NCBI GenBank assembly: GCA_964344415.1
Contig: CAYFMS010000002.1
Location: 256,593-320,592 of the forward strand
Length of the DNA stretch: 64,000 nucleotides
Source of the DNA: an uncultured Gammaproteobacteria bacterium
Lineage (GTDB): Bacteria; Patescibacteriota; Patescibacteriia; UBA9934
Direction of reading: 5' to 3'
Below, piece after piece: positions 308 to 40,538 of this stretch (position 1 is its first letter; every line of letters begins with the position of its first letter). The translations under genes and the position numbers were made by a program. Under the pieces are notes generated by a model that saw nothing but the letters and a program-made list of their open reading frames with translations, did no database searches and was not told the origin of the DNA.

Positions 308-309
308 AA

Positions 310-2840: not shown

Positions 2841-2857
2841 ATACTCTACCTTTGCTT

Positions 2858-4992
<2,135 letters not shown>

Positions 4993-5213
4993 GCAAAAGA
5001 ACGCCGCCAGTGCTCGCTTTGTCACATGCATAAGCGTCATCGCTCAGGCAAAACAGAGAGTAGAAATGTCTTTATTTTTCTTAATGCAATGATGCGTTCA
5101 TTCCTATCGGCTGTTTTGCAATTCCTCGCTCTTGCCGCATGCAGTGTGACAGTCTCACAGGTGGCGGCAGTTTCGGAAAGTACGCTTTGTTTGTGCGGTG
5201 AGTAGAACTTTAG

Positions 5214-5424
5214 AAAGTAATGAGTAATCATGTTCGTCCAGAGATCCTTCGACAAGCTCAGGATTTCAATCACGGTCGCACAGGATATTGGACGAACCCC
5301 GGTCGCGCAGTGAGTTAGATGAGATTTCGTTGAAGTTTGAGTAGTGGAATGAGCCGTACTGGAACGTACGGTGAATGAGCAACGGAAAACTGAAGCGAAA
5401 GATCGCTAACTCACAAGCGACTGC
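5214..5424. repeat. Dispersed intergenic repeat, family 2 (about 210 bp), beginning 2 nt after the pilD stop codon
   Basis: Shares gatccttcgacaagctcaggatttcaa, a cgtac...gtacg hairpin, ggtcgcgcagtgag and a terminal ctcacaagcgac motif with the copy at 16186..16396. Both copies end 1-2 nt from the stop of a minus-strand gene. Confidence 0.6.
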
Positions 5425-6725: not shown

Positions 6726-6731
6726 AGTATA

Positions 6732-24181: not shown

Positions 24182-24661
24182 TTATTCCGTCGCTGCTTCC
24201 TCTACTGGTTGAGCTTTATGCTCTGCAATTGCTTCAACAAGTGCAGAATCAGATTTTAGCTCTTCCGTGAAGATAACATGATCAGCATTTATCACCATTT
24301 CATCTTCCGGCCCATGCAATTCATCCCCAAGCTTCACAAGTGATGTATTTGTTTGCTGTTCAACGATTGGCTGACCAGCCGCATCAACTTGCCCGCTTTG
24401 CTGCAAAGCAGTTTGTACACGCAGATAGTAAATGTCTGAAAGAACAATGTACTCGTCTGATCGACTATCAACTATACCGAAATACACCTGCCCATTTGTA
24501 AGGAATACCGCTTGATGATCCCCTGAATCATTAATCGAACTAGCTCCACCTTTATTCCCCATAAGAAGGAAATATCCAGCTGCTAGAACCGCAGCAACAA
24601 TGACAACTGCGACAACAACTCCTCCTAATGCACTTTTATTATTACTCATTCCAGATTTCAT
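24182..24661 (-). CDS. Hypothetical membrane-anchored protein. Same-strand gene immediately downstream of the giant gene.
   Basis: 159 aa. Single N-terminal TM helix (GGVVVAVVIVAAVLAAGYFLLM) and a predicted extracytoplasmic C-terminal domain. Confidence 0.5.
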   Translation of the reverse strand: MKSGMSNNKSALGGVVVAVVIVAAVLAAGYFLLMGNKGGASSINDSGDHQAVFLTNGQVYFGIVDSRSDEYIVLSDIYYLRVQTALQQSGQVDAAGQPIVEQQTNTSLVKLGDELHGPEDEMVINADHVIFTEELKSDSALVEAIAEHKAQPVEEAATE

Positions 24662-24703: not shown

Positions 24704-27700
24704 TTACTCCTGTAAAGATTCTGTGTTAATAGTTTCTTCTTCCGCTGGCGCTGGTTCAGGTGAAGATTCAACAATTGGCTCTTCGATAACCACTTCTTCA
24801 ATAATCTCCTCTACCTGAGGTGCTTCTTCTACCTCTTCAACCACCGGTTCGATAGTAGATGTTTCGACAACATCCACTACCTCTTCCGTTGTAACTTCAT
24901 CCTCTTCTTCAATCGTCTCCTCTTCGATTACTTCTTCGAGAACCGGTCCAAAGACCTCTTCTGTCACTTCTTCCGTGTTTTCAATTGATTCTTCTTGCGC
25001 TGGCTCTTCTTCTACGATTTCAGAAGAAGTTTCAGTCTCAGTAGAATCCTCTGTTACCTCTTGCTCAGTCGATTCTTCAACTTGCTCTTCAACAACCGGC
25101 ACATCTTCTACATCTATCGTTTCTGGCTGCTGAGGCACGATGATTTCAATTGTCGATTCCTGAGCGTTATCTGATCCATCCGCGATGACAATTTCAATTT
25201 CTTCTGTCGTACCATCACTCACGAAAATCTTTCCTTCCTCAACCGCGAATGCATGCCATGAGAAGTCAAGGTCATGTCGCACTTCCTGATTAATCTTGAT
25301 TCGGAATCCAGCCGTTGTTTCATCAAGTACCGTGTATTTGAAGCTTGCAAATAGATTCGCTTCGCCACGCGGAGACGCTGTTACAATTGGCTGATATTCA
25401 TATTCTTCTTCGAATTCAACTTGTACATATCGGTCGCCTTCCAAGATTCTAGCAATTCCGGCCGTATCAGCCCCGAATGTTGCATGCTTCTGCACATGAA
25501 TTCCTTCCGTGAATTCCTGCAATGAAGCAATCTCTACTGATTCTGAACCATCAACCGTAACACCAGCAGCCTCTTGAAGACGTTCGAGTACAGCGACACG
25601 TGCTTCGAGATCCGTGAATTCTTGCGCAAGATCATCAACGCTGATTACGAGATCCGCTACTGTCAATTCAAGTGCATCTATACGTCCATCCATCAGGCTC
25701 ATTTCTTCTTGACGTTGTAATTCTGAAGCCGTGACCGCATCATTGATCGCTGCATCAATACCGAGCTGATTAAGCGTCGCTTGCGTATCTGCCGTGAGAA
25801 CGGCGAAGACGTCGTAATTTTCAAGTGCCACATCAATTGAATTATCGATTCCAAGTCCGTCAATTCGCTGATCAATGGTGTCATTAATTGTCGTCGTAAG
25901 GTTGAGTCCAGCGATTTGTCCATCTACGATAGCCGTAATGTCTTCATCGAAGTTCAATGTTTCAAGCGCGCCGCTAATCATAAGCTCAACCTCATCCTCG
26001 ATTTCCATTGCTGCTACATGCTCCGCAACCTCTGCTTCAACTGATTCAACCGTCAAGCTCTTATTACGACGAGAAATGAGTACATTTACCATTCCCGTTT
26101 CTCCAGAGAGATCTTCGAGTGCAACACCGACGGTTGGGTCTCCCGGACTCGCTTTCATTGCATATCCTGGAATTGACGCTGATGTCAGTGAATCACCAAC
26201 ACGAATTTCACCATTTTCATTCGTCACATGTGCATCAACCTGTCCGAGCATACCTACGATTGCATAATGTGCATTGTCGACTGTTTCATCTGTTGTATTA
26301 CCGATAATGGATGGATTGTCAGAGATAATACCCATCACATTACCATCAGAAGCCCCAGAACATCGCTCTACCGCATTATCTCGTGTGATGTCCACACAAA
26401 CGATTTCACCGGCAGCAAGGTCAGACTGAACAGAGTAGAAACGCTCGGCATAGTCGGCTCCACCAGAGTTGTAAGCGACATCTGAGAATGTTTCACCATC
26501 CTGAGCAACACGCCATACAGAATCAGATGTTCCATCAATATCGACATTGAATGCTGCGAAGTTGAATGTGTCAGTTGTTTCTGAATTTGTTTCAATTTGC
26601 ATGATTCCCATTCGTCGACCAGTACCGTCACCCGTCATAGCAAGCGCTCCAGATTCTGCCATGATATGAAGTCCCGCTCCAGCCGTTGAAAGCGTTGCTG
26701 ATGCATAATCTACACTGATAGCTTGTACCGTTGCAGAAGCGATATCAACTGCGAGTGGCCCATCGAATCCAGCCGTACCAGTTCCTAAGAAGTCAAATGT
26801 TGGATTCGTCGTCGCATTTCCGAATGTAATCGCTTCAGATGAATTTGTCGTATTGATATTGATGTAATTATCACTTCCTTGCTGCAAGTCATATGCATCG
26901 GTTGTATTGTCAGTCATTGAAGGCGCAAGTGTATCTGAGAGATATGCCATGGTTCCTGCCGCATCCTGAAGTGTAATTGTTCGAGAAGCAGAGAATCCAG
27001 ATCCGTCGAGTACCAATCCCGTATTTGCTGCAACGCTGAAGTTCATGTTTGCATTTGGGAATGTAATTGTCTTATCTGTCGTTGTCGGTTCCGTAATAGA
27101 GAAGAATGTTTCTTTCGAATCCGCACCAGCCCCTTCAAATGCCAATGCCTGCGTTGTTCCCATGATTGCACCGTACATGTAGATCTTGTCTCCAAATCCA
27201 TTTCCAAAGGTAGAATTATCATAGACCGTCAAATCATCTACCGTAATATCTGAGGCTTGTGCCGTACCGATGTCAACACCATCAATTGTTCCACCGTCAA
27301 TATCAACATCACCCGTGAAGTGAATATCTCCTGTCGTACCAGCATCTGTAAGCGTCATGAGTGTATTTGTTCCATCGGTGAACGTGAGCACCCCTCCGTT
27401 ACCTATAGAGATGATTGGACTTGTTGTATCAAAACTCAAGTCTCTATCCCATCCATCTCCGATACGAATTGCCGACTCAAGTCCGTCAGCGTCAGCAGAT
27501 GCAATGTCATCGATATCGAGTCCAATGACTTCATCCGTTGATGCTGCATGATTCGCACTTGCAATATCGAGTACTAATGCTCGGTAAATGTCAGATCCAT
27601 CACCTGCACCGGCTGTAAAGTCAATTTCCATTCCCTCTTCTGAAGCAGCAACTGCAGCCGTCTTCACAAGATTTACATCATCTGCAGAGTCTAATGTGAT

Positions 27701-30700
27701 ATTGAAGTCTCCACCGGATAGATCGAAGTCGCCATCGCTGATTAGGATATCTCCAGCCGTGAGAACAAGAGCATCTGTTCCATCAGCAGATCCATTAATT
27801 GTCACCGCTCCGCTACCAAGGAATGAGAAGCTTGGATTTGTTGTTGCATTTCCGAAGGCGATATTCTCTGATGAATTTGTCGTATTGATATTGATGTAAT
27901 TATTGCTTCCTTCCTGAAGATCATATGCATCCGCCGTATTGTCAGTTAGACCACTACCACCGCCCGTTGAAATCGCCGCAAATGATCCACCATCATTTGA
28001 GAGCTCCCATTGGTCAGTTGAAGCATTGTAACGAATCTCTCCGTCACTGTCCGATCCCTGATTTGCCAAGATTCGTATATTTGCCCCTGACCCAGCATTA
28101 TCTTCATCAAGTTCTATAACCGTTCCATGAACATCGAAGTCTCCACCAGCCGTGAAGAGTCCTGTTCCTGTTGTAATTGCTTGATTATTTGTTGTATTGA
28201 AACTGAATGCTCCAGAACTATCGAGTGATCCGTCAGAGAGCGTCGTCGTTGCACCCGCAATGAATGATCCATCGGTATAAACACTTCCTTCAATACCTGC
28301 AGTTCCCGCAACAAAGAGGTCATCTCCTCCGAGTGAGAAGTCTCCATTTGCGAGAGTTTCAGATGTTGACGTTGAACCACCAACGATGAGGTCTTCGTCG
28401 AAAAGTACATCATCCGCATCTACATGAATGGCATATGTATCTGAACCCTCAATGTACAAACCAATATCCGTAGATCCAGCCGTTTGATCTTCAATTTGAA
28501 TACCGTAATTCGTTGTTAATGTCCCAGCTGGATTAAACGCCGACTGGACCTGGAGACCGGCACCAGTCGTGATCGTTCCTGTACTTGTGTTCATTACACG
28601 TCCGGCCAAACCAGCAGCTTCTGTGATTGTTCCCCCCGTCTGATGAATAACACGACCACCACCACCAGCAGCAAGTGTAACTGTACCAGCTGTACCAACA
28701 TTACTTGTCACAAAAGCTCCAAGGAAACCACCAGCCTCATTGACCGTTCCTGTTGATTCATGAGAGAAAATTCCCGTCGCACCTGTTGAGAACGTATTAC
28801 TGTCAAATGCACCTGACTGCACAGCCGCGCCATCCAATTGGAGTGTTGAATGAGAACCATGCGTGTACGTACTTACCGTCCCAGTATCTATCGTCAATTG
28901 CGCACCAACTCCATACCCATGCACATTCGTAGCTGAAATGTCAGCACCTCGTCCCGTTGCGCTTACCGTACCCGATGTCGCCGTTGCATTATAAGTAACA
29001 TCAAGTGCTGATCCAGAATCATTATATGTAGCTCCTGCATTGTTGACCGTAATATCTTTATCGATTCGAACAGTATCCGCCGTATCTGTGCGAGTAGCCG
29101 CTGCTGTCAATGTTCGATCTGAAACGAATCGTCCAATAGCTCCAGTCGCATCAGCTGTAATTCCTGACGCCGTGTGATCCACGTTAAAGACATTTGATGT
29201 AGTAATAGCATTACTCGTCGTACCAACATCAACCCCTATGCCACTTGTCAATCCATCAAAACTCAAAGATGCACCCGAATTTGTCGTGACCGAATCACCC
29301 GTCATTGTGAACAATGTTTCATTATTCGCACTTGTAATTGCATACTGAATGTCCGTTGCAACAACATCTCCATCTGAATCAATTCTCCAGTAATCCGTTC
29401 CTGAACTATCTTCAATTTCTATAATTTTCTGGTTTTGTGTGCTGTTTGCTTGAATGAGCAACTGCACCTCATCCGTATCACCATCGACAGAGAGTTTTGC
29501 AAGAGATGCTCCTCCAATACCGACATTGTCTGTAGAGGTTGAAAGGGTGATATCTGTTCCTCCATCTGTCCAACCAGCTGCTTCAGAGATACCTCCGTCT
29601 AGAATGGTGAATTCAGCCGCAGAAATAAGCGTTCCAGAGATGTCGAAGAGATTGGTGAATCCTCCGCCTGCATCTACCGTCTTGAAGACAGTACCAACAA
29701 CATCATCTGTGTCTGAGTTGTCTGCAACGAAGAGTGCGTCTAATCCTTCTGTACTTGCCGCATTGTCGAGATACAGTCCGTATTGAGCTGTCGTTGAACT
29801 TGTTGTGTCTTCAGCTGTGAATGTATGCACAACACCATTTTCACTTGTTGCATCCGTAAGCGTTCTTGCAATAGACCATGTTTCTCCTGCTGTACCGGTA
29901 ATACTAGTTGCAGCGTCGAGTGCAAGTGCATCTGCGAATTCTGTGAAGTCGAGTGTATCTGCTGTAAGGTCAGCTCCGTCTACATTAGATAGAGAATTTC
30001 CTGTTCCATTCGCATCAAAGGCTACACCTGTAATCGCTCCTGTTGTAGAAATATCCCAGTCAGATGTGTTGATCTGCATGGTGTCTCCACCGTCTCCAAG
30101 AAGAACAGCTCCGCCTGGTGTAAGAGTGAATGCTCCTGTTGTTGTGAACGTGGTAGAAGCTCCATCGAATGAGACGTCTGTATCTGCGACCGCAAGATCA
30201 CCGTTAAGATCAATGGTACTTGAGGCAAGAAGTGTTCCATCAAGCGTAACAGCTCCATCTACTTCAAGTTCACCCTCAATGTATGCATCTTCTCCGTCCA
30301 TGGATGCTGTTCCCGGTGTTCCATTTCCTACACGTAGATTTCCTGTTGAAATGCGGAAGCTGTCTGCTCCGGCTGCAAGTGAGAAGTCGAAGAGATCATC
30401 CGCATTCGCATCAGTGTCTGTGATAGATCCGTCTGCATAGGTCGTTGTAGACCCGGCGATGAATGATCCATCCGTATAGATGCTACCTTCTACACCAGCC
30501 GTTCCCGCAACGAAAAGGTCATCTCCGCCGAGTGAGAAGCTTCCATTTGAGAGGGTTTCTGTACTAGAAGTTGAACCTCCAACAATAAGGTCTTCGTCAA
30601 ATCGAACGTCATCGGCGTCAGCAAAGATGGCATATGTGTCACCACCTTGAACGCGAATACCATAGTTATTCGTATTTCCAGTTACATCTTCGATATCAAG

Positions 30701-33700: not shown

Positions 33701-36700
33701 CGCTGTTCCGATAGAAACGCTGTCTGTCGATGTATTGAGCCTGATATTCGTCCCATCATCTACCCAACCTGCAGCACTAACCGCTGTCCCGATACCTAGG
33801 AATGCTCCTCCATCATTTGAAATCTCCCATTGATTATTTGACGCGCTATAACGAAGTGTTCCGTCACTGTCAGATCCTTGATTCGCAACAATATCGAGGT
33901 CTGCTCCAGAACCTGCATTATCTGCATCAAGAGTAAGCGTTGTTCCATTTGCAGATATAGCTCCTCCAGCCGTGAAGAGTCCAGTACCAGTCGTAATTGC
34001 CTGATTATTTGTGGTATTGAAGCTGAATGCCCCAGAGCTGTCGAGCGATCCATCAGAAAGTGTTGTTGTCGCTCCTGCAATGAATGAACCATCTGTGTAA
34101 ACACTTCCTTCAATTCCGGCTGTTCCTGCTACAAAGAGGTCATCTCCGCCGAGAGAGAAGCTTCCATTTGCAAGTGTCTCTGTTGCAGATGTTGAACCTC
34201 CAACAATAAGGTCTTCGTCGAATCGAACGTCATCAGCGTCAACAAATAGCGCATAAGTATCCGCGCCAGCGACATAAACACCATAGTCATTCGTTCCGGC
34301 TGTCATGTCCTCGACATATAATCCATAATTATTTGTCAAAGTCCCTGCAGCAATAATTGGCGCCTTTGCATAGTATGCCGATCCAAGCGTAATTGTTCCT
34401 GCGCCCGTCTGAATGATCTGACCACCGAATCCACTCGCAAGCGCCTGCGTCGCTGTTCCAGTGTTATTAACATACCCAATTGCACCAATCACTTCGCTAT
34501 CTACCGCCGTTGTTGTTGCTACACCAAACTGTCCACCCGAAATATCTTCTACGCTGCCAGATGTATTCACGCTCACATAACCATTTACACCCGTTGGAGC
34601 ATTAGAGGTAGTAAAATCACCCGAGTTTGTTGCACTGCCAGAAATTGATGTCTGTCCATGCAAACTATATGCCGCTCCAGATTGCGTACCTGATGTAAAG
34701 GTCAATGTATTTTGACTCAAAATTCTTGTTTCGGAACTTCCTTCAAGACCCGACCATCCAATATCAAGCGCATTTACTCCAGATCCATAGCCACCACCAC
34801 TCATCGAAACGTCGATTGCATCTGCCGTTATATTAAGCGTTCCAGATGTCTCTGTACCAACAACATCAATATTCACTACATCTCCGGAGTCATTCAATGT
34901 ACCCGAGGCATTATTCACCGTTGGGCGACGTTCAATGAATATATTGCTTCCTGAGTCCGTACGTGTCGTTGCTGCTGTTAATGTTCGATTACTGATCACA
35001 CGTGCAATTTCACCACTAAAATCGGCTGTTATTCCGCTTGCTTCATGATCGAGGTTAAGCAATCGACCACTTGTAAGTCCATTACTTGCAACACTGATAT
35101 TTGCAGCCGTTCCAGAAGTAAGTGATTCAGCAGCAATATCAATACCAGCTCCGCTATCCGTTGTTGCTGATGATGAAATGTCCAATGCACTAATATCACG
35201 GGATTCTGTAATTGAAGCACCACCACTACCAATATTCAACCCGCGTGATCCACTACTTATCCCGTCTCCTGAAGTTGAAATATTCAATACATGCCCCGTC
35301 CAATCAAGTGTCCCTGCCGTCTCGACACCCCCATAAGACAAGTCCATCACATGCCCAGAATCATTCAATGTTCCACTCGCATTATTCACGGTAGGGCTCT
35401 TCGCAATAGATACGATATTACCTGAGTCATTTCGCGTTGCCGCTGCAGTCAAGGTTCGCGTTTGATTGATGCTAAATAGCGTTCCCGAATAATCAGCCGT
35501 TATAGCTGTTGGTTGATGGAAGATATTAAATGCCGTTCCACTTGTAAGTGCATTATTATTGAAATTGTATTCGATTCCAGATCCAGTAGTCACGCTATCA
35601 CCTGTAATATTTAATATGCTACCAGATGTCGTTGCTGCACTAGACACAACCGATAATGCAGATTCATCCGCCGTATCCGTTATGTTCACAGCACCATCTG
35701 AAACAGTGAAATCATTCGCAAATGTTACATTTCCATTATCAGCAAAGGTTGCAAATGGCGTACTTGCATCTTGAATCACGAAATCCTCTGTATTGTTTAG
35801 ATTAATGACAAGGTCTCCTGAACCATCAACCGTAATCGACTGACCATTATTATATGCATCATCGAGTGTCGTACTTCCACCACCTGTACTAATAGCCGCA
35901 AAACTGCCGCCATCATTACTAATTTCCCAGCGATTATTCGCTGCACTATAACGAAGTGTTCCATCGCTGTCAGACCCTTGATTCGCTACAATATCGAGGT
36001 CCGCTCCAGAACCTGCATTATCTTCATCTAGTTCAATTGTTGTTCCGTGTACGTCAATATCTCCACCGGCGGTAAAGAGCCCAGTTCCTGTAGTGATTGC
36101 TTGATTATTTGTCGTATTGAAACTGAATGCTCCTGAAGAGTCTAGTGATCCGTCGGAAAGTGTTGTTGTCGCTCCTGCAATGAATGATCCATCCGTGTAC
36201 ACGCTTCCTTCAATACCGGCTGTTCCTGCTACGAAGAGGTCATCTCCTCCAAGTGAGAAGCTTCCATTTGAAAGGGTCTCTGTTGCAGATGTTGAACCTC
36301 CAACAATAAGATCTTCATCGAAACGACCATCACCCTGATCAACCAATAATGAAAGTCCTGTTCCTGCATTCTGGATACTAAGCGCAACCGGATTATTCGT
36401 CGTGTCATCCATGTCAATCAATACACCAATCTCATCATCCGTATCATCGACTTGAACCTCTAATCGCGCACCCGGAGTCGTCGTACCAATACCAAACTCA
36501 CCCGTATCTTCAATACGAGCCTTCTCATCATTATTAACAGAGAATTCAATATAGTCGTCATGAACAAGACTGATAGCAAATTGGCCATCCGCATCAGCAA
36601 TACCGAATTGTGGATTTGATGCCGCGCCATCACCGATAATTCGCCCCTGAGATCGGTCTCCACCGTCATCGTCTGCATTGAAAATAATTCCACCAGTAGA

Positions 36701-39700
36701 AGTGTCATCCCACTTATAGTAGATATAGTTATCATCACCATTTGAAACAAAACGCGTTGCATTTCCAGGGGTGTTTGAATCATGGAACTCAATACGTTCA
36801 ACTTGACCAATAGTACCAGCAGTTCCAATTCCAAGAGTATCTTGGAAAAGAAGATTACCATCAATATATACATGATTTTCTACACCAAGACTGTCTGCAA
36901 TAAAGACATCGTCACCACCAAGCGAGAAAGAGGCATTTTCAATTGTTTCTGTAGCAGATCCAACCGTAAGATCGCTTCCAAAGTCAGCATCGCCGTCAAC
37001 ATCAAGCGTGCCATCAATGAATGTTGCACCTTCGATTCCAGCTGTTCCCGCTACAAATAGATCATCTCCTCCAAGAGTAAATCCGGCCTCATCAATCGTT
37101 TCCGTACTAGAAGTTGAACCTCCAACGATAAGATCTTCGTCAAATCGAACATCTGCAGCATCTGCCCAAAGCGCATATGTATTTGCGCCGGCAATATATG
37201 TTCCATAATCAAATGTAGACGCATCGATTCGAATACCGGTACCAATACCACCCGTTTCCGTTGTTTGTGTAATCTTAATTGCATCAATTTCACTTGTTGC
37301 ATTATCTGAAGCATTTCCGTCTAGATCGATAGATAGCGCACCCTTTTGAATACCTGCACTCAATGCATTGATCACGTCGGATTCTATTCCAACCGCGAAT
37401 TGATCATCAGATGTACCTGTATATAAATTGTGAGAGAATGTCGTTTTTGCCTGGCTCGCCTCATTCGTATTCCCGCTGAAAGTAAGTTCATCATCAGCAC
37501 CACCGACATTAACAAGAAGATTTTCTCCCGGTGCAATCGTAAAGCGATTTGCGGTAGCTATTGACGTATTTCCGCTGCCAGATTCAGAAATGCTAAAAAT
37601 ATCAGTACCGGCGCTATTTTCAAATATAGCAAGTTCATTTGTTTGCGTTGAGTGACCCTGCACCAAGAACTGCACCTCATCCGTATCACCATCTACTGAG
37701 AGTTTTGCAAGAGAAGCTCCTCCAATACCAACATTGTCTGTCGAAGTAGTGAGAGTGATATCTGTTCCTCCGTCTGTCCATCCTGCTGCCTCAGAAATAC
37801 CTCCATCAAGGATGGTGAACTCAGCCGCAGAAATAAGTGTTCCGCCTATATCGAAGAGATTCGTGAATCCTCCACCAGCGTCAATAGTCTTGAAGACGGT
37901 TCCGACAGCGTCATCTGTGTCTGAGTTATCTGCAACAAAGAGAGCGTCGAGACCTTCTGTAGAAGCTGCATTATCTAGATAAAGTCCATATTGAGCTGTC
38001 GTTGAACTTGTTGTGTCTTCTGCTGTGAAGGTATGTACAACTCCATTTTCGCTCGTTGCATCTGTAAGCGTTCGAGCTATAGACCATGTTTCTCCTGCTG
38101 TACCAGTGATGCTCGTTGCAGCATCGAGGGCCAATGCATCTGCAAATTCTGTAAAGTCAAGAGTGTCTGCCGTAAGATCTGCTCCGTCTACATTAGATAG
38201 AGAGTTTCCTGTTCCATTCGCGTCGAAGGCAACGCCTGTGATTGCTCCTGTCGTTGAGATGTCCCAGTCAGAAGAGTTTACAGAAACCGTTCCATTATTA
38301 TCACCAAGTGTAATTGTATTTGACCCACTTACAACGAATGCTCCGTCTGTTGTATCAATGGTAACTTGATCAAGAGTTGTCGCTCCATCCGCATCAAGTG
38401 TTGATCCAAGCGTTGTTGCACCAACAACATCAAGTGCTCCGTCTGTATAGATATTTCCCTCAATTCCAGCCGTTCCTGCAACGAAGAGATCATCTCCACC
38501 AAGTGAGAAGCTTCCATTTGAGAGTGTTTCTGTAGCTGATGTCGATCCACCAACAACCAGATTTTCATCGAAGCGCACATCATCGGCGTCTACGAAAAGT
38601 GCCAATGTATCCGCACCTGCTACGTAAATACCATAATCAGTAGTGGCAGATGTTTGATCATCAACATATACACCATATGCCGTTGTAACAGCAGCCGTTC
38701 CGCCAAGGTTTGGATCCGCGACATTCAAACCACGAAAATCAGTAACCGCGGTAGCACCTGCAATAGTTGAAGATGCGTCAAAAATAGTTAAGCTTGGCAT
38801 GGTCGCGTCACCAGAAAGAGATGTATAAGCTCGGACAACATCTGCCTCTGTAATAGTGTGCGCATCACCCGCAGCTAAATCAACAACAGAGAAAACACCA
38901 CCACGAGCATCAGAAACCGTACCGGTGAATCCGTCATCGATCCAAGCCTCACCCACAATACCGTTTATTGAGTTAATTGTACCTGCGGACTGTCTTACAT
39001 TTGCACGTGCGGCATTTCCATAGTATGTACCGGTATCATTTGTTCCATTATCTGCAATGGAAAGGTTAACTGCACCCCAGTTATATGAACCCGTGTCATC
39101 ACTACTTACACTTCGGATGTTCTTTGTTGTAAAAATACGTGTGTTATTTTCAGACACCTCGTCGAACACATTTGAAACGAATGCAACTGTATTATTTCGA
39201 ACAAATGGATATGTGTCAGAGAAATCATTACCAAGTGCCCAAATCGCATCAATCCCAGTAGATCCCCCCAGTCCAAAATCTTCTGGATCACCCAAGCGCA
39301 TGACTTCAGTGCTGTTAATATTCCAAAGCTGAGATGTGTCATCATTCATGTCAATGACCAAATCATTACCAGTTGCATCCCAAGAAATAGCAGCATCGGG
39401 ATCAGCAGCCGTATTACCAAATGTTAATTCAATATCATCAGCTAGATGAGCCTGACTATTTACCAAAATATCACCACTAACCGTCAGTTCATTCGCAAAC
39501 GTTACATTTCCGTTATCTGCGAAGGTTGCAAAAGGAGTTCCAGCATCTTGAATAACAAAATCCTCAGTATTATTGAGGTTTACGACTAAATCACCAGATC
39601 CATCCACCGTAATTGACTGGCCATTATTGTATGCATCATCAAGAGATGTATCCGTTGTTAACGCCAATGTCCCTGTTGAGGTTGGAAGTGTAAGCGTAAT

Positions 39701-40420
39701 GTCCGATCCGGGATCAGCACCGAGTGCAATCGTTACTTCATTCGTGTCATCTGTCGCACCGTCGAGAATAAATGCATTTGTTCCTTGAATTGCGCCAGTA
39801 ATCGTGATGCTGTCCGTCACCGCATTTCCGAGCGTTACATCACCATTTCCGGTAAATGATCCAGCAAATACCGCCTCGGTTGCTGATATATCACCAGCAC
39901 CAAGGTCGAAATCTAGGTCAGCGTCAAGTGCGAGTAATTGATTTGCCGTTGCCGTTGAAGCAGCGCTAATACCGTCTACCGTATCAGCATTATAAGCATA
40001 TGCTGCTGCACCCATTTGATGGCGCGGCGTCATCTCGGCATTCGTTTCAACTAAAACACCAAGGTAAACGTCAGCGCTATTGAAATCGACCCCCGTCAAT
40101 GCATTCGTTCCAGTACCACCAAGAATGATGGAGAATTGACCATTCGTAACAGTTACTGAAATTTGCGTCGGAGTCCCACAAGTACCTCCCGCAGAATAGA
40201 GACATGTTCCGGCAGTAGAAGCGTCATACAATCGAAATGTCATGTCATATGTCCCATCAGGAACAGCATCGTCTGCCGAGTCTAGCAGCGTACCCGTGAA
40301 AGGAATTTCTTGATTAATTTCCGCATGCGCGATTTGCACATTTGAGAGCAACGGATAGAATACAAGGCTCGCAATAAAGAACGTATTTACAAGCTTTGTT
40401 AGACGGTTATGAAAAGTCAC
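24704..40420 (-). CDS. Giant (5238 aa) repetitive secreted/surface protein. Thr/Gly/Ser/Asp-rich beta-rich repeats, with a coiled-coil and a very acidic C-terminal tail.
   Basis: Single uninterrupted 15,717-nt ORF starting with GTG after AAGGAG. Signal peptide MTFHNRLTKLVNTFFIASLVFYPLLSNVQIAHA. A module of about 40 aa (RFDEDLIVGGSTSATETLSNGSFSLGGDDLFVAGTAGIEG.VYTDG) recurs at least 9 times. A near-identical repeat of about 175 aa occurs twice. The C-terminus runs EEVEESTEQEVTEDSTETETSSEIVEEEPAQEE. All antisense ORFs in the track within this span are treated as artefacts. Confidence 0.85.
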   Translation of the reverse strand: MTFHNRLTKLVNTFFIASLVFYPLLSNVQIAHAEINQEIPFTGTLLDSADDAVPDGTYDMTFRLYDASTAGTCLYSAGGTCGTPTQISVTVTNGQFSIILGGTGTNALTGVDFNSADVYLGVLVETNAEMTPRHQMGAAAYAYNADTVDGISAASTATANQLLALDADLDFDLGAGDISATEAVFAGSFTGNGDVTLGNAVTDSITITGAIQGTNAFILDGATDDTNEVTIALGADPGSDITLTLPTSTGTLALTTDTSLDDAYNNGQSITVDGSGDLVVNLNNTEDFVIQDAGTPFATFADNGNVTFANELTVSGDILVNSQAHLADDIELTFGNTAADPDAAISWDATGNDLVIDMNDDTSQLWNINSTEVMRLGDPEDFGLGGSTGIDAIWALGNDFSDTYPFVRNNTVAFVSNVFDEVSENNTRIFTTKNIRSVSSDDTGSYNWGAVNLSIADNGTNDTGTYYGNAARANVRQSAGTINSINGIVGEAWIDDGFTGTVSDARGGVFSVVDLAAGDAHTITEADVVRAYTSLSGDATMPSLTIFDASSTIAGATAVTDFRGLNVADPNLGGTAAVTTAYGVYVDDQTSATTDYGIYVAGADTLALFVDADDVRFDENLVVGGSTSATETLSNGSFSLGGDDLFVAGTAGIEGNIYTDGALDVVGATTLGSTLDADGATTLDQVTIDTTDGAFVVSGSNTITLGDNNGTVSVNSSDWDISTTGAITGVAFDANGTGNSLSNVDGADLTADTLDFTEFADALALDAATSITGTAGETWSIARTLTDATSENGVVHTFTAEDTTSSTTAQYGLYLDNAASTEGLDALFVADNSDTDDAVGTVFKTIDAGGGFTNLFDIGGTLISAAEFTILDGGISEAAGWTDGGTDITLTTSTDNVGIGGASLAKLSVDGDTDEVQFLVQGHSTQTNELAIFENSAGTDIFSISESGSGNTSIATANRFTIAPGENLLVNVGGADDELTFSGNTNEASQAKTTFSHNLYTGTSDDQFAVGIESDVINALSAGIQKGALSIDLDGNASDNATSEIDAIKITQTTETGGIGTGIRIDASTFDYGTYIAGANTYALWADAADVRFDEDLIVGGSTSSTETIDEAGFTLGGDDLFVAGTAGIEGATFIDGTLDVDGDADFGSDLTVGSATETIENASFSLGGDDVFIADSLGVENHVYIDGNLLFQDTLGIGTAGTIGQVERIEFHDSNTPGNATRFVSNGDDNYIYYKWDDTSTGGIIFNADDDGGDRSQGRIIGDGAASNPQFGIADADGQFAISLVHDDYIEFSVNNDEKARIEDTGEFGIGTTTPGARLEVQVDDTDDEIGVLIDMDDTTNNPVALSIQNAGTGLSLLVDQGDGRFDEDLIVGGSTSATETLSNGSFSLGGDDLFVAGTAGIEGSVYTDGSFIAGATTTLSDGSLDSSGAFSFNTTNNQAITTGTGLFTAGGDIDVHGTTIELDEDNAGSGADLDIVANQGSDSDGTLRYSAANNRWEISNDGGSFAAISTGGGSTTLDDAYNNGQSITVDGSGDLVINLNNTEDFVIQDASTPFATFADNGNVTFANDFTVSDGAVNITDTADESALSVVSSAATTSGSILNITGDSVTTGSGIEYNFNNNALTSGTAFNIFHQPTAITADYSGTLFSINQTRTLTAAATRNDSGNIVSIAKSPTVNNASGTLNDSGHVMDLSYGGVETAGTLDWTGHVLNISTSGDGISSGSRGLNIGSGGASITESRDISALDISSSATTDSGAGIDIAAESLTSGTAANISVASNGLTSGRLLNLDHEASGITADFSGEIARVISNRTLTAATTRTDSGSNIFIERRPTVNNASGTLNDSGDVVNIDVVGTETSGTLNITADAIDVSMSGGGYGSGVNALDIGWSGLEGSSETRILSQNTLTFTSGTQSGAAYSLHGQTSISGSATNSGDFTTSNAPTGVNGYVSVNTSGSVEDISGGQFGVATTTAVDSEVIGAIGYVNNTGTATQALASGFGGQIIQTGAGTITLGSAYYAKAPIIAAGTLTNNYGLYVEDMTAGTNDYGVYVAGADTYALFVDADDVRFDEDLIVGGSTSATETLANGSFSLGGDDLFVAGTAGIEGSVYTDGSFIAGATTTLSDGSLDSSGAFSFNTTNNQAITTGTGLFTAGGAISANGTTLTLDADNAGSGADLDIVANQGSDSDGTLRYSASNNQWEISNDGGAFLGIGTAVSAAGWVDDGTNIRLNTSTDSVSIGTATALGKFTVDGDTDEIQLIIQGNGTQTSDLAVFETSAGADLFTISGTGTVTANGQVDLGDGGDTVAIDSSDWDISATGNLTGIGSITADGALSITDTANETALALTSSATTNHGATMTFDSLTTGNGLRISSDSADTNSRPLLNVVNDNTAAVGAIPLAIRQDAAGTGVSIDQDGAGIGLNIDHDDTGTTASVNIDRDGNNASNIVALNVDAANAGAGDGIAINVTGGSFDFNGSDIDLDPTGTTHLEIVDNTSDVFVIGQGGTNYIEIDSTDGSEWTRFRQKVRLHSQVRVEDDQQIRFGTDSDIRLGYDATSDFFDIDNTSTAGSTRLSLGTDTSATDVRVRDNSGNTLFQVRGDGALIHNGAFTLGDNGETGSIDTSDWDISTTGVVTGLGTVGTDGTITVSKAEDTAFLTLSDTTNADTASFYTGTGSPNGALTAAAGSLFLDQAGAVYVNTDDGTTWTDLASGGGGGGGWTDDGTVVRLTTATDNVTIGSASDLSANLGLDGNADEIQFLVQGNGTQTSDLVVFEDSAGGDLFTVSGAGVVTANGQVDLGDGGDTVSINSSDWDISTTGDITGAGAITADGTLTVSNDVFIDGSADEVQLLVQANSTQNSHVAVIENSGGTDLWSVTNTGTIAQSPQATSGGISTVGVLFDQSGATYTDTATAGSGTATQVWFNAFAQPTLAATNSSVTTTDAATWYINNAPAAGTNQTITNAHALLVDAGNATFDDDVIVGGETSRTETIAHSSFSLSGNDLFVAGSAGFEDNIYADSEIVVGNGGTGNISSNGDNNLQLRTNEGTSTSYIEIKADGQGNDIELNLNSTGKVTIDETLAAQSSQHFPLSVAMTINSGTQTGELHAAANELTVSGTASTAQNPLAGGATISAGSNVMRHDSTAASTGSLFGSVDLLIAGEDTAAFGQLGQAVGGASIVRTAGTGTIDEALGHFAGVIVQHASGTTTAVSGLNIQNVDQSSGSHTVTNEEGINVKLMNIASGGTSVGLDIEDVTGNTNNYGIRVQGGDTYAIFADADDVRFDEDLIVGGSTSSTETLSNGSFSLGGDDLFVAGTAGVEGSIYTDGSFIAGSTTTYADGSITDTDANADDLFDFSLAAGADSFRISTGNLRVGNGTPGTASMDGEDAYIEGELEVDGAVTLDGTLLASSTIDLNGDLAVADTDVSFDGASTTFTTTGAFTLTPGGAVLLGDGGDTMQINTSDWDISTTGAITGVAFDANGTGNSLSNVDGADLTADTLDFTEFADALALDAATSITGTAGETWSIARTLTDATSENGVVHTFTAEDTTSSTTAQYGLYLDNAASTEGLDALFVADNSDTDDVVGTVFKTVDAGGGFTNLFDISGTLISAAEFTILDGGISEAAGWTDGGTDITLSTSTDNVGIGGASLAKLSVDGDTDEVQLLIQANSTQNQKIIEIEDSSGTDYWRIDSDGDVVATDIQYAITSANNETLFTMTGDSVTTNSGASLSFDGLTSGIGVDVGTTSNAITTSNVFNVDHTASGITADATGAIGRFVSDRTLTAAATRTDTADTVRIDKDITVNNAGATYNDSGSALDVTYNATATSGTVSATGRGADISATNVHGYGVGAQLTIDTGTVSTYTHGSHSTLQLDGAAVQSGAFDSNTFSTGATGIFSHESTGTVNEAGGFLGAFVTSNVGTAGTVTLAAGGGGRVIHQTGGTITEAAGLAGRVMNTSTGTITTGAGLQVQSAFNPAGTLTTNYGIQIEDQTAGSTDIGLYIEGSDTYAIHVDADDVLFDEDLIVGGSTSTSETLANGDFSLGGDDLFVAGTAGIEGSVYTDGSFIAGATTTLSDGSLDSSGAFSFNTTNNQAITTGTGLFTAGGDFDVHGTVIELDEDNAGSGANIRILANQGSDSDGEIRYNASTDQWELSNDGGSFAAISTGGGSGLTDNTADAYDLQEGSNNYININTTNSSENIAFGNATTNPSFSFLGSGAVTINGSADGTDALVLTAGDILISDGDFDLSGGDFNITLDSADDVNLVKTAAVAASEEGMEIDFTAGAGDGSDIYRALVLDIASANHAASTDEVIGLDIDDIASADADGLESAIRIGDGWDRDLSFDTTSPIISIGNGGVLTFTDGTNTLMTLTDAGTTGDIHFTGDVDIDGGTIDGVDIGTAQASDITVDDLTVYDNSTFGNGFGDKIYMYGAIMGTTQALAFEGAGADSKETFFSITEPTTTDKTITFPNANMNFSVAANTGLVLDGSGFSASRTITLQDAAGTMAYLSDTLAPSMTDNTTDAYDLQQGSDNYININTTNSSEAITFGNATTNPTFDFLGTGTAGFDGPLAVDIASATVQAISVDYASATLSTAGAGLHIMAESGALAMTGDGTGRRMGIMQIETNSETTDTFNFAAFNVDIDGTSDSVWRVAQDGETFSDVAYNSGGADYAERFYSVQSDLAAGEIVCVDITRDNAVERCSGASDGNVMGIISDNPSIIGNTTDETVDNAHYAIVGMLGQVDAHVTNENGEIRVGDSLTSASIPGYAMKASPGDPTVGVALEDLSGETGMVNVLISRRNKSLTVESVEAEVAEHVAAMEIEDEVELMISGALETLNFDEDITAIVDGQIAGLNLTTTINDTIDQRIDGLGIDNSIDVALENYDVFAVLTADTQATLNQLGIDAAINDAVTASELQRQEEMSLMDGRIDALELTVADLVISVDDLAQEFTDLEARVAVLERLQEAAGVTVDGSESVEIASLQEFTEGIHVQKHATFGADTAGIARILEGDRYVQVEFEEEYEYQPIVTASPRGEANLFASFKYTVLDETTAGFRIKINQEVRHDLDFSWHAFAVEEGKIFVSDGTTEEIEIVIADGSDNAQESTIEIIVPQQPETIDVEDVPVVEEQVEESTEQEVTEDSTETETSSEIVEEEPAQEESIENTEEVTEEVFGPVLEEVIEEETIEEEDEVTTEEVVDVVETSTIEPVVEEVEEAPQVEEIIEEVVIEEPIVESSPEPAPAEEETINTESLQE

Positions 40421-40538
40421 ATTCTCCTTGTTAATTTAACAAATCACACGCATGGAGCGCTTATGAAGATATTATAACATTTGAAGAAACGGATCTTGAA
40501 TCGCTCGTGGATAACTTTTTAGCCAATATTCGCTAAAA

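What the first reader, a model, noticed from the sequence alone, without database searches (positions are those of the whole stretch)
24704..40420. 15.7-kb gene for a 5238-aa repetitive secreted protein
The protein takes up about a quarter of the window. It has a signal peptide, then many Thr/Gly/Ser/Asp/Ala-rich beta-strand-like repeats, including at least 9 copies of the RFDEDLIVGGSTSATETL...GGDDLFVAGTAGIEG module. A coiled-coil segment follows (LEARVAVLERLQEAAG) and then a poly-acidic C-terminal tail. No recognisable enzymatic motif is present. Giant surface proteins are a hallmark of host-attached ultrasmall bacteria, but the function of this repeat family is unknown. The region around YAERFYSVQSDLAAGE...MGIISDNPS before the coiled coil faintly recalls phage tail-fibre C-terminal chaperone regions. 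That resemblance is speculative.
Basis: partly seen in the sequence, partly recalled or inferred. Interest (0 to 1): 0.6.

Follow-up and report, generated by a model that had tools for sequence, protein, structure and literature searches.

The report
Giant phage-like surface fibre, self-cleaving end
The 15.7-kb gene is real and most likely encodes a very long, secreted, three-chain surface fibre of an ultrasmall (CPR/Patescibacteria-type) bacterium, whose C-terminal end is a relative of the self-cleaving folding domain of phage phi29 tail spikes. This makes it a candidate tool for grabbing other cells, but not a new kind of machine.

Summary
The ORF (24704..40420, minus strand, 5238 aa) is intact. 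It has a strong ribosome-binding site and a Sec-type signal peptide, and a public gene call is identical. Its internal repeats are 93-97% identical as protein but only about 80% identical as DNA (dN/dS about 0.05, dS about 1), so neither assembly collapse nor chance explains them.

The named module occurs 7 times, plus 1 divergent tandem copy, not 9 or more.

No Pfam, NCBIfam or PHROG model hits the protein directly.
- 35 of 59 close homologs hit PF11962.
- The AlphaFold core has pLDDT above 90.
- Foldseek's top PDB hits are 3SUC and 3GQH.
- D4656 and E4659 align with gp12 D692 and E695 and are invariant in the family.

The correct family is therefore G2, not S74.

After this domain come a helical/coiled-coil stretch, an H-lectin-like domain and an acidic tail. 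The same C-terminal module caps long ORFs, often over 3,300 aa, in 219 genome loci, almost all from CPR bacteria.

Best reading: a Sec-exported, trimeric, phage-tail-fibre-like adhesive fibre that folds from its C-terminus and cleaves itself at A4655|D4656. Trimer formation, cleavage and host binding are inferred, not shown.

The parts
24704..40420 (-). Complete CDS of the 5238-aa protein (GTG start at 40420-40418, stop at 24704-24706)
   Evidence: An identical public gene call exists, P0089.
40424..40429 (-). Shine-Dalgarno AAGGAG, 3 nt before the GTG
   Evidence: Sequence read.
40471..40479 (-). TGTTATAAT, an extended -10-like box about 50 nt upstream of the start. A possible own promoter; consensus match only.
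   Evidence: The promoter scan found no full -35/-10 pair.
40322..40420 (-). Signal peptide, aa 1-33 (MTFHNRLTKLVNTFFIASLVFYPLLSNVQIAHA|E)
   Evidence: Sequence inspection. The homologs P0071-P0076 have equivalent leaders.
39941..40321 (-). Conserved N-terminal beta-rich domain, aa ~34-160 (consensus IP..I.YQG.L.D..G.PV.DG......F.LYDA..GGT...........V.V.NG.FS..LG...AEMTPR....AYA), with the Cys pair C73/C81
   Evidence: Alignment A2. Its profile finds 58,952 representative proteins at E<=1e-3. The same domain heads 11 of 27 complete family ORFs. No PDB sequence relative.
27941..39940 (-). Mosaic repeat body, aa ~161-4160. Shuffled sub-modules of about 35-80 aa, rich in T/G/S/D/A.
38438..38578 (-). 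Module A copy 1 (aa 615-661, VRFDENLVVGGSTSATETL...GIEGNIYTDG)
37010..37150 (-). Module A copy 2 (aa 1091-1137)
36857..36988 (-). Divergent tandem module A copy (aa 1145-1188, ...LTVGSATETIENASFSLGGDDVFIADSLGVENHVYIDG)
36188..36328 (-). Module A copy 3 (aa 1365-1411)
34088..34228 (-). Module A copy 4 (aa 2065-2111)
31382..31522 (-). Module A copy 5, divergent (aa 2967-3013, ATFDDDVIVGGETSRTETI...)
30467..30607 (-). Module A copy 6 (aa 3272-3318)
28268..28408 (-). Module A copy 7 (aa 4005-4051)
37664..38275 (-). Long duplicated block, copy 1 (aa 716-919). It is 97% identical in protein to aa 3452-3655.
   Evidence: Protein identity. Over aa 705-899: DNA 82% identical, dN 0.05, dS 1.0. DNA repeat families.
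29456..30067 (-). Long duplicated block, copy 2 (aa 3452-3655)
26456..27940 (-). Last segment before the cleavage motif, aa 4161-4655. It has little internal repetition beyond one duplicated ~47-aa unit at aa 4158 and 4502. Candidate distal end of the mature fibre.
   Evidence: Only 3 partial relatives in JGI metagenomes.
26438..26461 (-). Predicted autocleavage motif G-A4655|D4656-Y-A-E4659-R-F
   Evidence: ADYAE is invariant in 59 of 59 family members. hhalign places it on phi29 gp12 S691|D692-F-A-E695-Y-F.
26069..26455 (-). Peptidase_G2-type intramolecular-chaperone core (beta-tulip), aa 4656-4784, with the conserved Cys pair C4675/C4687
   Evidence: pLDDT mostly above 90. Foldseek: 3SUC and 3GQH and viral 'preneck appendage protein'. 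PF11962 in 35 of 59 homologs.
25565..26050 (-). Helical stalk, aa 4791-4952. There is a clear heptad coiled coil at about aa 4897-4952.
25286..25486 (-). Distal beta domain, H-type-lectin-like, aa ~4979-5045 and a few residues beyond
   Evidence: The AlphaFold model gives strands at pLDDT about 70-90. 4 of 5 aligned homolog segments hit PF09458, best E 3.1e-5 and 24.5 bits against a cut-off of 24. The window sequence itself gives no hit.
24707..25285 (-). Acidic low-complexity tail, aa 5046-5238 (Glu/Val/Thr/Pro-rich). No C-terminal TM segment and no LPXTG.
24182..24661 (-). Downstream 159-aa protein with an N-terminal TM helix. A tentative partner gene.
   Evidence: Homologs lie downstream on the same strand in 10 of 80 related genome loci, including the closest one, L002. 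No Pfam family.
41830..42786 (-). Upstream 318-aa secreted protein with a dockerin-like C-terminus. A tentative neighbour.
   Evidence: A homolog lies next to the L002 fibre gene. Dockerin_1 gives E 1e-3 on the last 55 aa, below the cut-off.

Best explanation
The gene encodes a Sec-exported, phage-tail-fibre-like surface fibre of a CPR/Patescibacteria-type bacterium.

Shown:
- An intact ORF under strong purifying selection.
- A signal-peptide-like leader.
- A widespread conserved N-terminal domain.
- A roughly 4,500-aa mosaic of beta-type repeats.
- A C-terminal module whose core is homologous, in sequence profile and in predicted fold, to the Peptidase_G2 intramolecular-chaperone (IMC) domain of the phi29 gp12 tail spike. 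The D-x-x-E motif that aligns with the gp12 cleavage site is invariant across the family.
- After that core, a helical/coiled-coil stalk, an H-lectin-like domain and an acidic disordered tail.

Inferred mechanism:
1. After export, three chains are brought into register by the C-terminal module (tulip domain plus coiled coil).
2. The fibre folds from the C-terminus towards the N-terminus as an intertwined trimer, without cytoplasmic chaperones.
3. The IMC then cuts the chain between A4655 and D4656. This separates a fibre of about 4,620 aa (about 485 kDa per chain) from a 583-aa C-terminal fragment.
4. The N-terminal domain holds the fibre on the producer's surface, as proposed for the Bdellovibrio MAT fibres.
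5. The little-repeated segment just before the cut (aa ~4161-4655), or the lectin-like C-fragment if it stays bound, contacts a target surface.

If the rise per residue matches the Bdellovibrio fibre crystal structures (0.38-0.44 Å per residue), the fibre would be roughly 0.18-0.2 µm long.
For: ORF reality and selection.

G2 IMC homology:
- 35 of 59 close homologs (E 1e-40 to 1e-65 to the window protein) hit PF11962, best E 2.8e-10.
- The family profile hits PDB chains that contain ...GADYAE... (8h2i_cU) and ...YADYAEYFE... (the Klebsiella phage tailspike Dpo31).
- The AlphaFold core has pLDDT mostly above 90.
- Foldseek's top PDB hits are 3SUC (pre-mature gp12) and 3GQH (the gp12 C-terminal fragment).
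- The top BFVD hits are 'preneck appendage protein', with E 3.6e-12 and rmsd 2.9 Å over 142 columns.
- hhalign puts D4656 and E4659 on gp12 D692 and E695, and MGIISDNPS on IGVISETAG.
- ADYAE is invariant in 59 of 59 sequences.
- Mature gp12* ends at residue 691 and is a homotrimer (PMC6542822). 3GQH has 163 residues, which equals 692-854.

Fibre character:
- The regions before the IMC in homologs match the trimeric beta-helix repeats of the Bdellovibrio MAT fibre Bd2133 (8ond_A, E 2e-7).
- The overall layout parallels the MAT fibres: signal peptide, conserved N-domain of about 130 aa, mosaic fibre, C-terminal chaperone (PMC10769870).
- A monomer AlphaFold run of a body segment did not fold into a confident single-chain solenoid.

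Family:
- 219 genome loci, almost all CPR, carry the module. At least 14 of 76 inspected ORFs exceed 3,350 aa upstream of the motif.
- 11 of 27 complete ORFs combine the same N-domain with this C-module.

Extracellular location: the signal peptide and the conserved Cys pairs.

There is no prophage context.
Against: - No library model hits the window protein itself. The G2 assignment rests on homologs, one profile alignment of modest score (hhalign local E 0.0017) and a predicted structure.
- Trimer formation, cleavage and surface display are untested.
- The body segment model was poor (pLDDT 63). This is compatible with an obligate trimer but equally with a shallow alignment of 18 sequences.
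- The C-terminal fragment is 583 aa against 163 aa in gp12. Its distal domain is variable and lectin-like across the family. That is odd for a disposable chaperone and suggests it has a function of its own.
- From my own recollection of Xiang et al. 2009 (the paper could not be read here), release of the gp12 fragment needs ATP, which is not available outside the cell.
- The equivalence of the N-domain with the Bdellovibrio MAT N-domain could not be tested.
- The organism's lifestyle is unknown.
Confidence: 0.62

Rival explanations
1. The architecture is the same, but the C-terminal fragment is the working end rather than a throw-away chaperone. The tulip domain, trimeric coiled coil and H-lectin-like trimer would stay on the fibre, either uncleaved or cleaved but non-covalently held. 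They would serve as the sugar-binding tip. Alternatively they would bind the producer's own wall, which would make the C-terminus cell-proximal and the N-terminus distal.
For: - The distal domain after the coiled coil varies among family members: H-lectin-like, FGE-sulfatase/C-type-lectin-like, or a second tulip. This resembles the 'tip swapping' described for MAT fibres (PMC10769870).
- The post-motif part is consistently about 520-690 aa in 76 loci, far more than the 163 aa that suffice in gp12.
- From memory, H-type lectins such as Helix pomatia agglutinin assemble as trimers, which would fit a trimeric coiled coil.
- There is no extracellular ATP to drive release of the fragment.
Against: - The D-x-x-E cleavage-site motif is invariant in 59 of 59 sequences, which argues that cleavage is retained.
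- The H_lectin assignment is weak. One homolog sits just above the cut-off and the window sequence gives no hit.
- The acidic tail has no recognisable wall-anchoring motif: no LPXTG and no TM segment.
Confidence: 0.25
2. It is a monomeric beta-solenoid or bead-on-a-string adhesin or S-layer-associated protein (like FHA, RTX/LapA-type or Big/cadherin-type giants). On this view the C-terminal domain is just a decoration-protein-like beta-tulip with no chaperone or protease role.
For: - The composition is repetitive and acidic, with Gly/Asp-rich motifs that could bind Ca2+.
- The beta-tulip fold is shared with phage cement and decoration proteins that do not cleave.
Against: - No Big, cadherin, RTX, FHA, SLH or autotransporter model matches.
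- An N-terminal Sec signal, rather than a C-terminal T1SS signal, is present.
- The best fold hits are the gp12 pre-mature protein and its C-terminal fragment, ahead of the decoration proteins.
- The gp12 cleavage-site motif is present and invariant.
- A monomer AlphaFold run gave no confident solenoid.
Confidence: 0.08
3. It is a prophage or phage tail fibre gene, or an assembly chimera made by mis-joined repeats, rather than a cellular gene.
For: - The C-terminal domain is phage-like.
- 159 viral contigs encode relatives of the cleavage-site region.
- The ORF is long and repetitive.
Against: - The neighbours are housekeeping genes on the same strand (hrcA-grpE-dnaK-dnaJ, cysS, dnaX, secDF and others), with no phage structural or replication genes.
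- GC content and skew are uniform across the gene.
- The DNA repeats are only 61-81% identical, too diverged to be collapsed or mis-joined by an assembler. dN/dS of about 0.05 shows a long history as coding sequence.
- The viral relatives match only about 70-130 residues around the motif, at 25-42% identity.
- A tblastn search of 50,697 phage genomes found nothing.
- L002 from an independent MAG has the same module set (9 module A copies) and the same downstream gene.
Confidence: 0.03

Closest known systems
phi29 gp12 pre-neck appendage (tail spike) and the MEROPS/Pfam Peptidase_G2 IMC autoproteolytic domain (PF11962; PDB 3SUC, 3GQH)
   Same: - The beta-tulip core fold matches, and these are the top Foldseek hits.
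- Three motifs are collinear: D-[YF]-A-E-x-F, G-[IV]-IS and VG-[LM]-LGQ-[IV].
- The domain sits at the C-terminus of a long beta-rich fibre or spike.
- Helices follow the tulip.
   Different: - The protein is cellular and Sec-exported, not a virion part.
- The fibre in front is about 4,620 aa against 691 aa.
- The C-fragment is 583 aa against 163 aa. It has an added coiled-coil stretch of about 160 aa, a lectin-like domain and an acidic tail.
- The Pfam model does not reach the window sequence itself.
- The body shows no pectate-lyase-like right-handed beta-helix signal.
Bdellovibrio bacteriovorus MAT (mosaic adhesive trimer) fibres, e.g. Bd3182 and Bd2133 (PMC10769870; PDB 8ond, 8ol4, 8oml, 8ojn)
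   Same: - Both are cellular, signal-peptide-bearing, phage-tail-fibre-like proteins of a bacterium that lives on other bacteria.
[quoted passage not shown]
- The family profile hits Bd2133 fibre repeats.
   Different: - The chaperone is G2-type (D-x-x-E), not S74 (SDxxxK); no S74 motif or hit was found.
- The protein is about 5 times longer.
- The body modules of the window protein have no detectable sequence match to MAT structures.
- Homology of the N-domains was not testable here.
- The host is probably monoderm and CPR-like rather than a diderm predator.
Phage and giant-virus tail spikes or fibres with G2-type C-terminal IMC (Klebsiella phage Dpo31/Dpo36 tailspikes, PDB 28lx/8ck1; 8h2i chain cU 'P22'; Synechococcus phage S-SM2 'Peptidase G2 IMC' protein)
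   Same: They share the ...G-[AS]-DYAE-[YM]-[FM]... cleavage-site motif and the following tulip domain. 159 viral contigs encode relatives of this part.
   Different: Similarity is confined to about 70-130 residues around the motif, at 25-42% identity. The conserved ISRRNKSLTVE segment, the coiled coil and the distal domain typical of the CPR module were not matched in the viral loci.

Membership tests
Peptidase_G2 / phi29 gp12-type intramolecular chaperone (PF11962, MEROPS G2) | Sequence match to the family model at or above the curated cut-off | tested here: inconclusive
   The window protein gives no hit even at E<=10. Among its close homologs, 35 of 59 hit PF11962 at E<=0.01 (best 2.8e-10), and several score just above the 25-bit cut-off.
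Peptidase_G2 / phi29 gp12-type intramolecular chaperone (PF11962, MEROPS G2) | Cleavage-site motif equivalent to gp12 S691|D692-x-x-E695 | tested here: met
   A4655|D4656-Y-A-E4659 aligns with S|D-F-A-E of gp12. ADYAE is invariant in the 59-sequence family alignment. The gp12 residue numbers were checked on the phi29 genome record and against PMC6542822. The catalytic role of the Asp and Glu is from my recollection of Xiang et al. 2009, which could not be read here.
Peptidase_G2 / phi29 gp12-type intramolecular chaperone (PF11962, MEROPS G2) | Fold of the gp12 C-terminal fragment (beta-tulip followed by helices) | tested here: met
   The AlphaFold core has pLDDT mostly above 90. The top Foldseek PDB hits are 3SUC (E 3e-6) and 3GQH_A (E 7e-6, TM 0.55 on the target). 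The top BFVD hit is 'preneck appendage protein', E 3.6e-12.
Peptidase_G2 / phi29 gp12-type intramolecular chaperone (PF11962, MEROPS G2) | Autoproteolysis after trimerisation | not testable with these tools
   This needs expression of the C-terminal construct with D4656 and E4659 mutants, or proteomics.
Peptidase_S74 (endosialidase-type) intramolecular chaperone | PF13884 match and an SDxxxK catalytic motif | tested here: not met
   No Pfam hit. No SD...K anywhere in the protein.
Bdellovibrio-type MAT fibre superfamily | Signal peptide followed by a conserved beta-rich N-terminal domain of about 130 aa | tested here: inconclusive
   An analogous domain exists at aa 34-160, and its family has 58,952 representatives. 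No MAT N-domain sequence or structure was available to compare. There is no PDB relative.
Bdellovibrio-type MAT fibre superfamily | Intertwined trimeric beta-helix fibre with VG(G/N)..P...L-type capping loops | tested here: inconclusive
   The family profile hits the Bd2133 repeats, but through the homologs' GNVGIGTT.P..L motifs. The window protein has only about 2 such motifs, e.g. EFGIGTTTPGARLEV near aa 1310. The body model was of low confidence, and there is no direct PDB sequence hit.
Known bacterial giant adhesin families (Big, cadherin, RTX/T1SS, FHA/TPS, autotransporter, SLH S-layer) | Match to any of their domain models; a C-terminal T1SS signal or an LPXTG/SLH anchor | tested here: not met
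   No Pfam, NCBIfam or PHROG family at E<=0.1 over the whole protein. No LPXTG. An N-terminal Sec-type leader is present.
H-type lectin domain (PF09458) for the distal C-terminal domain | Match to PF09458 at the curated cut-off | tested here: inconclusive
   The window segment gives no hit. Of 5 aligned homolog segments, 4 hit H_lectin, one at 24.5 bits against a cut-off of 24 (E 3.1e-5) and the others at E 0.002-0.04.

The most novel reading that the evidence does not exclude
CPR bacteria have turned a phage G2-type self-cleaving tail-spike chaperone into a family-wide assembly-and-recognition cassette for very long cell-surface fibres. On this reading the roughly 600-aa C-terminal fragment is not discarded. 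It would act as a swappable trimeric lectin head (tulip, coiled coil, then an H-lectin, C-type-lectin-like or other domain). It would either stay docked on the cleaved fibre as the host-recognition tip or be released as a soluble lectin. Autocleavage, and in some relatives an adjacent intein, would control when the fibre becomes adhesive.
Probability: 0.25. Interest if true: 0.75.

Novelty: new variant of a known kind. Interest (0 to 1): 0.55.

Why it matters
Cultivated Patescibacteria live attached to other bacteria, and 'multiple adhesins' are essential for that growth (PMC10633639, PMC11665869). The adhesins themselves are almost all unannotated.

This analysis gives one giant 'hypothetical protein' a concrete and testable architecture and maturation step. 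It is a phage-type, self-cleaving, probably trimeric fibre roughly as long as the cell itself.

The same C-terminal cassette marks hundreds of long ORFs across CPR lineages. It could therefore serve as a search handle for candidate host-attachment fibres in CPR genomes. The variable domains at either side of the cleavage site would be candidates for host-specificity determinants.

The case also extends the cellular use of phage tail-fibre chaperones from the S74 type (Bdellovibrio MAT fibres) to the G2 type.

Tried and rejected
- **Direct library scans.** Pfam, PHROGs and NCBIfam scans of the whole protein in three overlapping pieces gave nothing.
- **PDB sequence searches.** phmmer of the C-terminal 738 aa and of aa 1-4700 against PDB sequences gave only chance-level or spurious Fab hits.
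- **Phage genome searches.** tblastn of the IMC core and of the N-domain against 50,697 phage genomes found no match.
- **Structure of a body segment.** AlphaFold of aa 2040-2340 used 7 internal paralogs and 10 external homologs. It gave pLDDT 63 and mostly coil, so no fold search was run on it.
- **Sub-module profiles.** Iterated HMMs of the sub-modules drifted because of the biased composition. Only the strict module A profile was kept.
- **Tandem repeats.** Tandem Repeats Finder sees only one trivial 36-nt array. The repeats are dispersed, not tandem.
- **Literature.** The Xiang et al. 2009 phi29 gp12 paper could not be read. The cleavage position was instead checked on the genome record, the 3GQH chain length and PMC6542822.
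- **Source identity.** An exact look-up of the 437-aa neighbour failed, probably because of a different start call. The organism name could not be recovered.
- **Search limitation.** The search for homologous proteins returned only proteins shorter than about 1.7 times the query length. Giant homologs therefore had to be found through the search for related loci.
- **S74, LPXTG and T1SS readings.** These were rejected.
- **Prophage reading.** This was rejected on gene context.
Full report

The ORF at 24704..40420 (minus strand) is uninterrupted: 5238 codons plus a stop. It covers 24.6% of the window. A canonical AAGGAG lies 3 nt upstream of the GTG start, and a TGTTATAAT box lies about 50 nt upstream. 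GC content and skew do not change across the gene. The public protein collection holds exactly this 5238-aa sequence with the same start (P0089). The window comes from a 768,188-bp ENA metagenome contig.

The protein is 55% T/G/S/D/A and has only 31 Lys and 4 Cys. The mature part carries a net charge of about -530.

The first 33 residues read as a Sec signal peptide ending AHA|E. This is by inspection; homologs have equivalent leaders.

The named module (V)RFDEDLIVGGSTS...GIEG occurs at aa 615, 1091, 1365, 2065, 2967 (divergent), 3272 and 4005. One divergent tandem copy lies at aa 1145. That gives 7 copies plus 1, not 'at least 9'.

aa ~150-4650 is a mosaic of dispersed sub-modules. aa 1-150 and 4650-5238 are unique.

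**2. The repeats are neither chance nor an artefact.**

- The DNA copies are only 61-81% identical, while the proteins reach 93-97% identity.
- For aa 705-899 against 3441-3635, dN is 0.05 and dS is 1.0. For the module pairs 1367/2067, 1367/4007 and 2067/4007, dN/dS is 0.04-0.08.
- Synonymous sites are therefore near saturation under strong purifying selection. These are old duplications in a real coding sequence, and they are too diverged for an assembler to collapse or mis-join.

**3. What the C-terminus is.**

Direct scans find no family. A search with aa 4560-5040 found 70 homologs (E down to 1e-65), all unannotated and, where named, from Patescibacteria. Many carry borderline Pfam Peptidase_G2 hits. 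In the 59-sequence alignment A1, 35 members hit PF11962, with a best E of 2.8e-10.

ADYAE (A4655-E4659) is invariant in A1, as are about 15 further positions. A Cys pair (C4675/C4687) is at least 90% conserved.

The A1 profile hits three kinds of PDB chain:
- a chain with ...SGADYAEMM...IGVVSSNPS (8h2i_cU);
- Klebsiella phage tailspike Dpo31/Dpo36 (...YADYAEYFE...);
- through the upstream fibre repeats of the homologs, the Bdellovibrio fibre Bd2133 (8ond_A, E 2e-7).

AlphaFold of aa 4600-5045 with A1 gave a core (aa 4655-4784) at pLDDT mostly above 90. A helical stretch follows (aa 4791-4952), then a small beta domain (aa ~4979-5045).

Foldseek against the PDB ranks 3SUC (pre-mature phi29 gp12) and 3GQH (the gp12 C-terminal fragment) first, followed by phage cement and decoration beta-tulip proteins. 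Against BFVD the best hits are 'preneck appendage protein', with E 3.6e-12 and rmsd 2.9 Å. A 'Peptidase G2 IMC autoproteolytic cleavage domain-containing protein' also appears further down.

I took gp12 from the phi29 genome record. Residues 685-700 read TGGNTWS691-D692-FAE695-YFESL. hhalign aligns the window's GA-D4656-YA-E4659-RF with S-D-FA-E-YF, and MGIISDNPS with IGVISETAG. By eye, giant YAIVGMLGQV also resembles gp12 WHVVGLLGQI further on.

Mature gp12* ends at residue 691 and is a homotrimer (PMC6542822). 3GQH has 163 residues, which equals 692-854. That D692 and E695 are catalytic is my recollection of Xiang et al. 2009, which I could not read here.

It is not S74: there is no PF13884 hit and no SDxxxK motif.

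**4. The rest of the C-terminal fragment.**

- aa 4897-4952 has a clean heptad pattern. The a/d positions are 100% L/I/V/M in the best 28-residue window, a value reached by 0.8% of shuffles. The coiled coil is therefore confirmed at the level of prediction.
- The following beta domain aligns with homolog segments of which 4 of 5 hit the H-type lectin model. One is just above the cut-off (24.5 against 24 bits, E 3.1e-5). The window sequence itself does not hit.
- Across the family this distal domain is variable. It can be H-lectin-like, FGE-sulfatase/C-type-lectin-like, a second tulip, or something else.
- The last roughly 195 residues are an acidic low-complexity tail with no TM segment or LPXTG.

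**5. The N-terminus and body.**

aa 34-160 is a conserved domain with a Cys pair (C73/C81). A profile of it finds 58,952 representative proteins at E<=1e-3, and 34,939 at E<=1e-10, out of 1.84 billion. They range from about 150 to 5238 aa. It has no relative among PDB sequences. Longer members end in diverse domains, including a weak G2 hit, K1-lyase_C and TIG.

Bdellovibrio MAT fibres are described as a signal peptide, a conserved beta-rich N-domain of about 130 aa proposed to sit on the cell surface, a meandering trimeric fibre, and either an S74 chaperone or a variable tip (PMC10769870). The layout here is the same. I could not test N-domain homology for lack of a MAT N-domain sequence.

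The body gave no PDB sequence relatives. Its monomer AlphaFold model was poor (pLDDT 63). That fits an obligate intertwined trimer but is not proof.

External proteins share single sub-modules combined with F5/8-type-C or other lectin-like ends.

**6. Family and context.**

A scan of one genome per species found 219 loci encoding the C-terminal module. Nearly all are from CPR lineages: Peribacteria, Peregrinibacteria, Parcubacteria, Falkowbacteria, Saccharibacteria, Moranbacteria and others. Some records are titled 'uncultured Gammaproteobacteria'; these are probably mislabelled bins.

In 76 inspected loci the motif sits 520-690 aa from the stop in most cases. At least 14 ORFs run off the 10-kb flank, which means more than 3,350 aa upstream of the motif. 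Of 27 ORFs with a complete upstream end, 11 also begin with the same N-domain.

The closest locus, L002 (a marine biofilm Patescibacteria MAG), has 9 module A copies in the part available. It also has the same small TM protein gene immediately downstream and a homolog of the 318-aa neighbour. Other family members have different bodies. The segment just before the cleavage site has almost no relatives in JGI metagenomes.

Viral contigs encode only the roughly 70-130 residues around the motif, at 25-42% identity.

The window itself is ordinary chromosome, with no prophage genes. It carries lgt, gatA, ligA, pilD, pilM, recJ, lepA, mnmA, dnaX, two VirD4-like ATPases, cysS, hrcA-grpE-dnaK-dnaJ, uppP and secDF.

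**7. Mechanism.**

Shown:
- the domain order;
- homology of the C-terminal core to the gp12 IMC;
- invariance of the cleavage-site motif;
- selection on the repeats;
- family distribution in CPR genomes.

Inferred:
- Sec export.
- Trimer nucleation at the C-terminal module and C-to-N folding, as in phage fibres with C-terminal IMCs.
- Autocleavage at A4655|D4656, which would give a 4,622-aa fibre chain (about 485 kDa) and a 583-aa fragment (about 61 kDa).
- Anchoring by the N-domain.
- Adhesion by the distal end.

The Bdellovibrio crystal structures give 0.38-0.44 Å per residue: 370 aa in 142 Å for Bd2133 and 135 aa in 60 Å for Bd3182 (PMC10769870). At that rise the fibre would be about 0.18-0.2 µm long.

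The main open point is the fate and role of the unusually large, lectin-tipped C-fragment. That is the basis of the main rival explanation and of the novel reading.

**8. Comparison and novelty.**

The protein works like a phage tail fibre or tail spike with a C-terminal intramolecular chaperone, and like the Bdellovibrio MAT fibres. It meets the motif and fold criteria of the G2 IMC family but not the Pfam score criterion on its own sequence. It fails the S74 criteria. It matches no classical adhesin family.

I found no description of this family in the CPR literature I could search. 'Multiple adhesins' are mentioned only generically.

I rate it a new variant of a known kind: a G2-type IMC cassette, extended by a coiled coil and a variable lectin-like domain, on giant cellular fibres that are widespread in CPR. 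Interest is moderate (0.55). It offers a useful, testable handle on CPR host attachment, but it is not a new principle.

Noticed in passing
Homologs P0002 (res 6-91), P0032 (res 24-81) and 9 other members of alignment A1; not in the window protein: 11 of 59 CPR homologs carry an Intein_splicing (Hint) hit directly upstream of the ADYAE autocleavage motif. Some gene calls start inside the intein. An intein next to a second self-cleaving element in a secreted fibre is unexplained.
   Followed up: partly
window 24182-24661 (-): A 159-aa protein with one N-terminal TM helix lies 42 nt downstream of the giant gene. Homologs lie downstream on the same strand of the fibre gene in 10 of 80 related genome loci, including the closest one, L002. 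It has no known family. It may be a partner or anchor.
   Followed up: partly
window 41830-42786 (-) and 40539-41852 (-): The two upstream genes encode a 318-aa secreted protein and a 437-aa protein. The 318-aa protein ends in a dockerin-like twin repeat (GDTDGDSGINDFDL...DFNADGIVNDFDL; Dockerin_1 E 1e-3, below the cut-off). The 437-aa protein has a signal peptide and a C-terminal TM anchor. A homolog of the 318-aa protein sits next to the L002 fibre gene. This may be a cohesin-dockerin-like surface pair.
   Followed up: partly
window 39941-40321 (-), aa 34-160 of the giant: The N-terminal domain belongs to a very large family with no Pfam hit in our scans: 58,952 representative proteins at E<=1e-3. 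No PDB sequence relative was found. It sits at the N-terminus of proteins from 150 to over 5,000 aa with many different C-terminal ends.
   Followed up: partly
window 37664-38275 vs 29456-30067 (-), and the module A copies: The internal repeats are kept at 93-97% protein identity while synonymous sites are near saturation (dS about 1, dN/dS about 0.05). Besides purifying selection, this could reflect selection against DNA identity, which would otherwise allow recombination within the gene.
   Followed up: partly
Loci L003, L004, L008, L010, L040, L043, L045, L056, L077, L080: Genome records titled 'uncultured Gammaproteobacteria' (TPA_asm bins) carry this otherwise CPR-restricted module. L023 is titled Zixiibacteriota. 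These are probably taxonomic mislabels or bin contamination.
   Followed up: no
window 18729-21212 (-) and 53842-55905 (-); 5426-7901 (-): The same 64-kb window holds two VirD4/TraG-like type IV coupling ATPases, a prepilin peptidase and pilM. These match the T4SS and type IV pilus functions reported as essential for epibiotic Saccharibacteria (PMC10633639).
   Followed up: no
window 58863-60836 (-): SecD carries an inserted PpiC-type rotamase (parvulin) domain (Rotamase E 6e-27, between the SecD P1 sub-domains). This would fuse an extracytoplasmic foldase to the translocon accessory protein.
   Followed up: no
Homologs P0003, P0007, P0009, P0010, P0012, P0013 and others: In many family members the distal domain after the coiled coil is a Cys-rich FGE-sulfatase/C-type-lectin-like domain (…CSGGACG…PGS.KYGT.PGFCV…GYHL..EN) instead of the H-lectin-like one. 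The far C-terminus thus appears to be a swappable module.
   Followed up: partly
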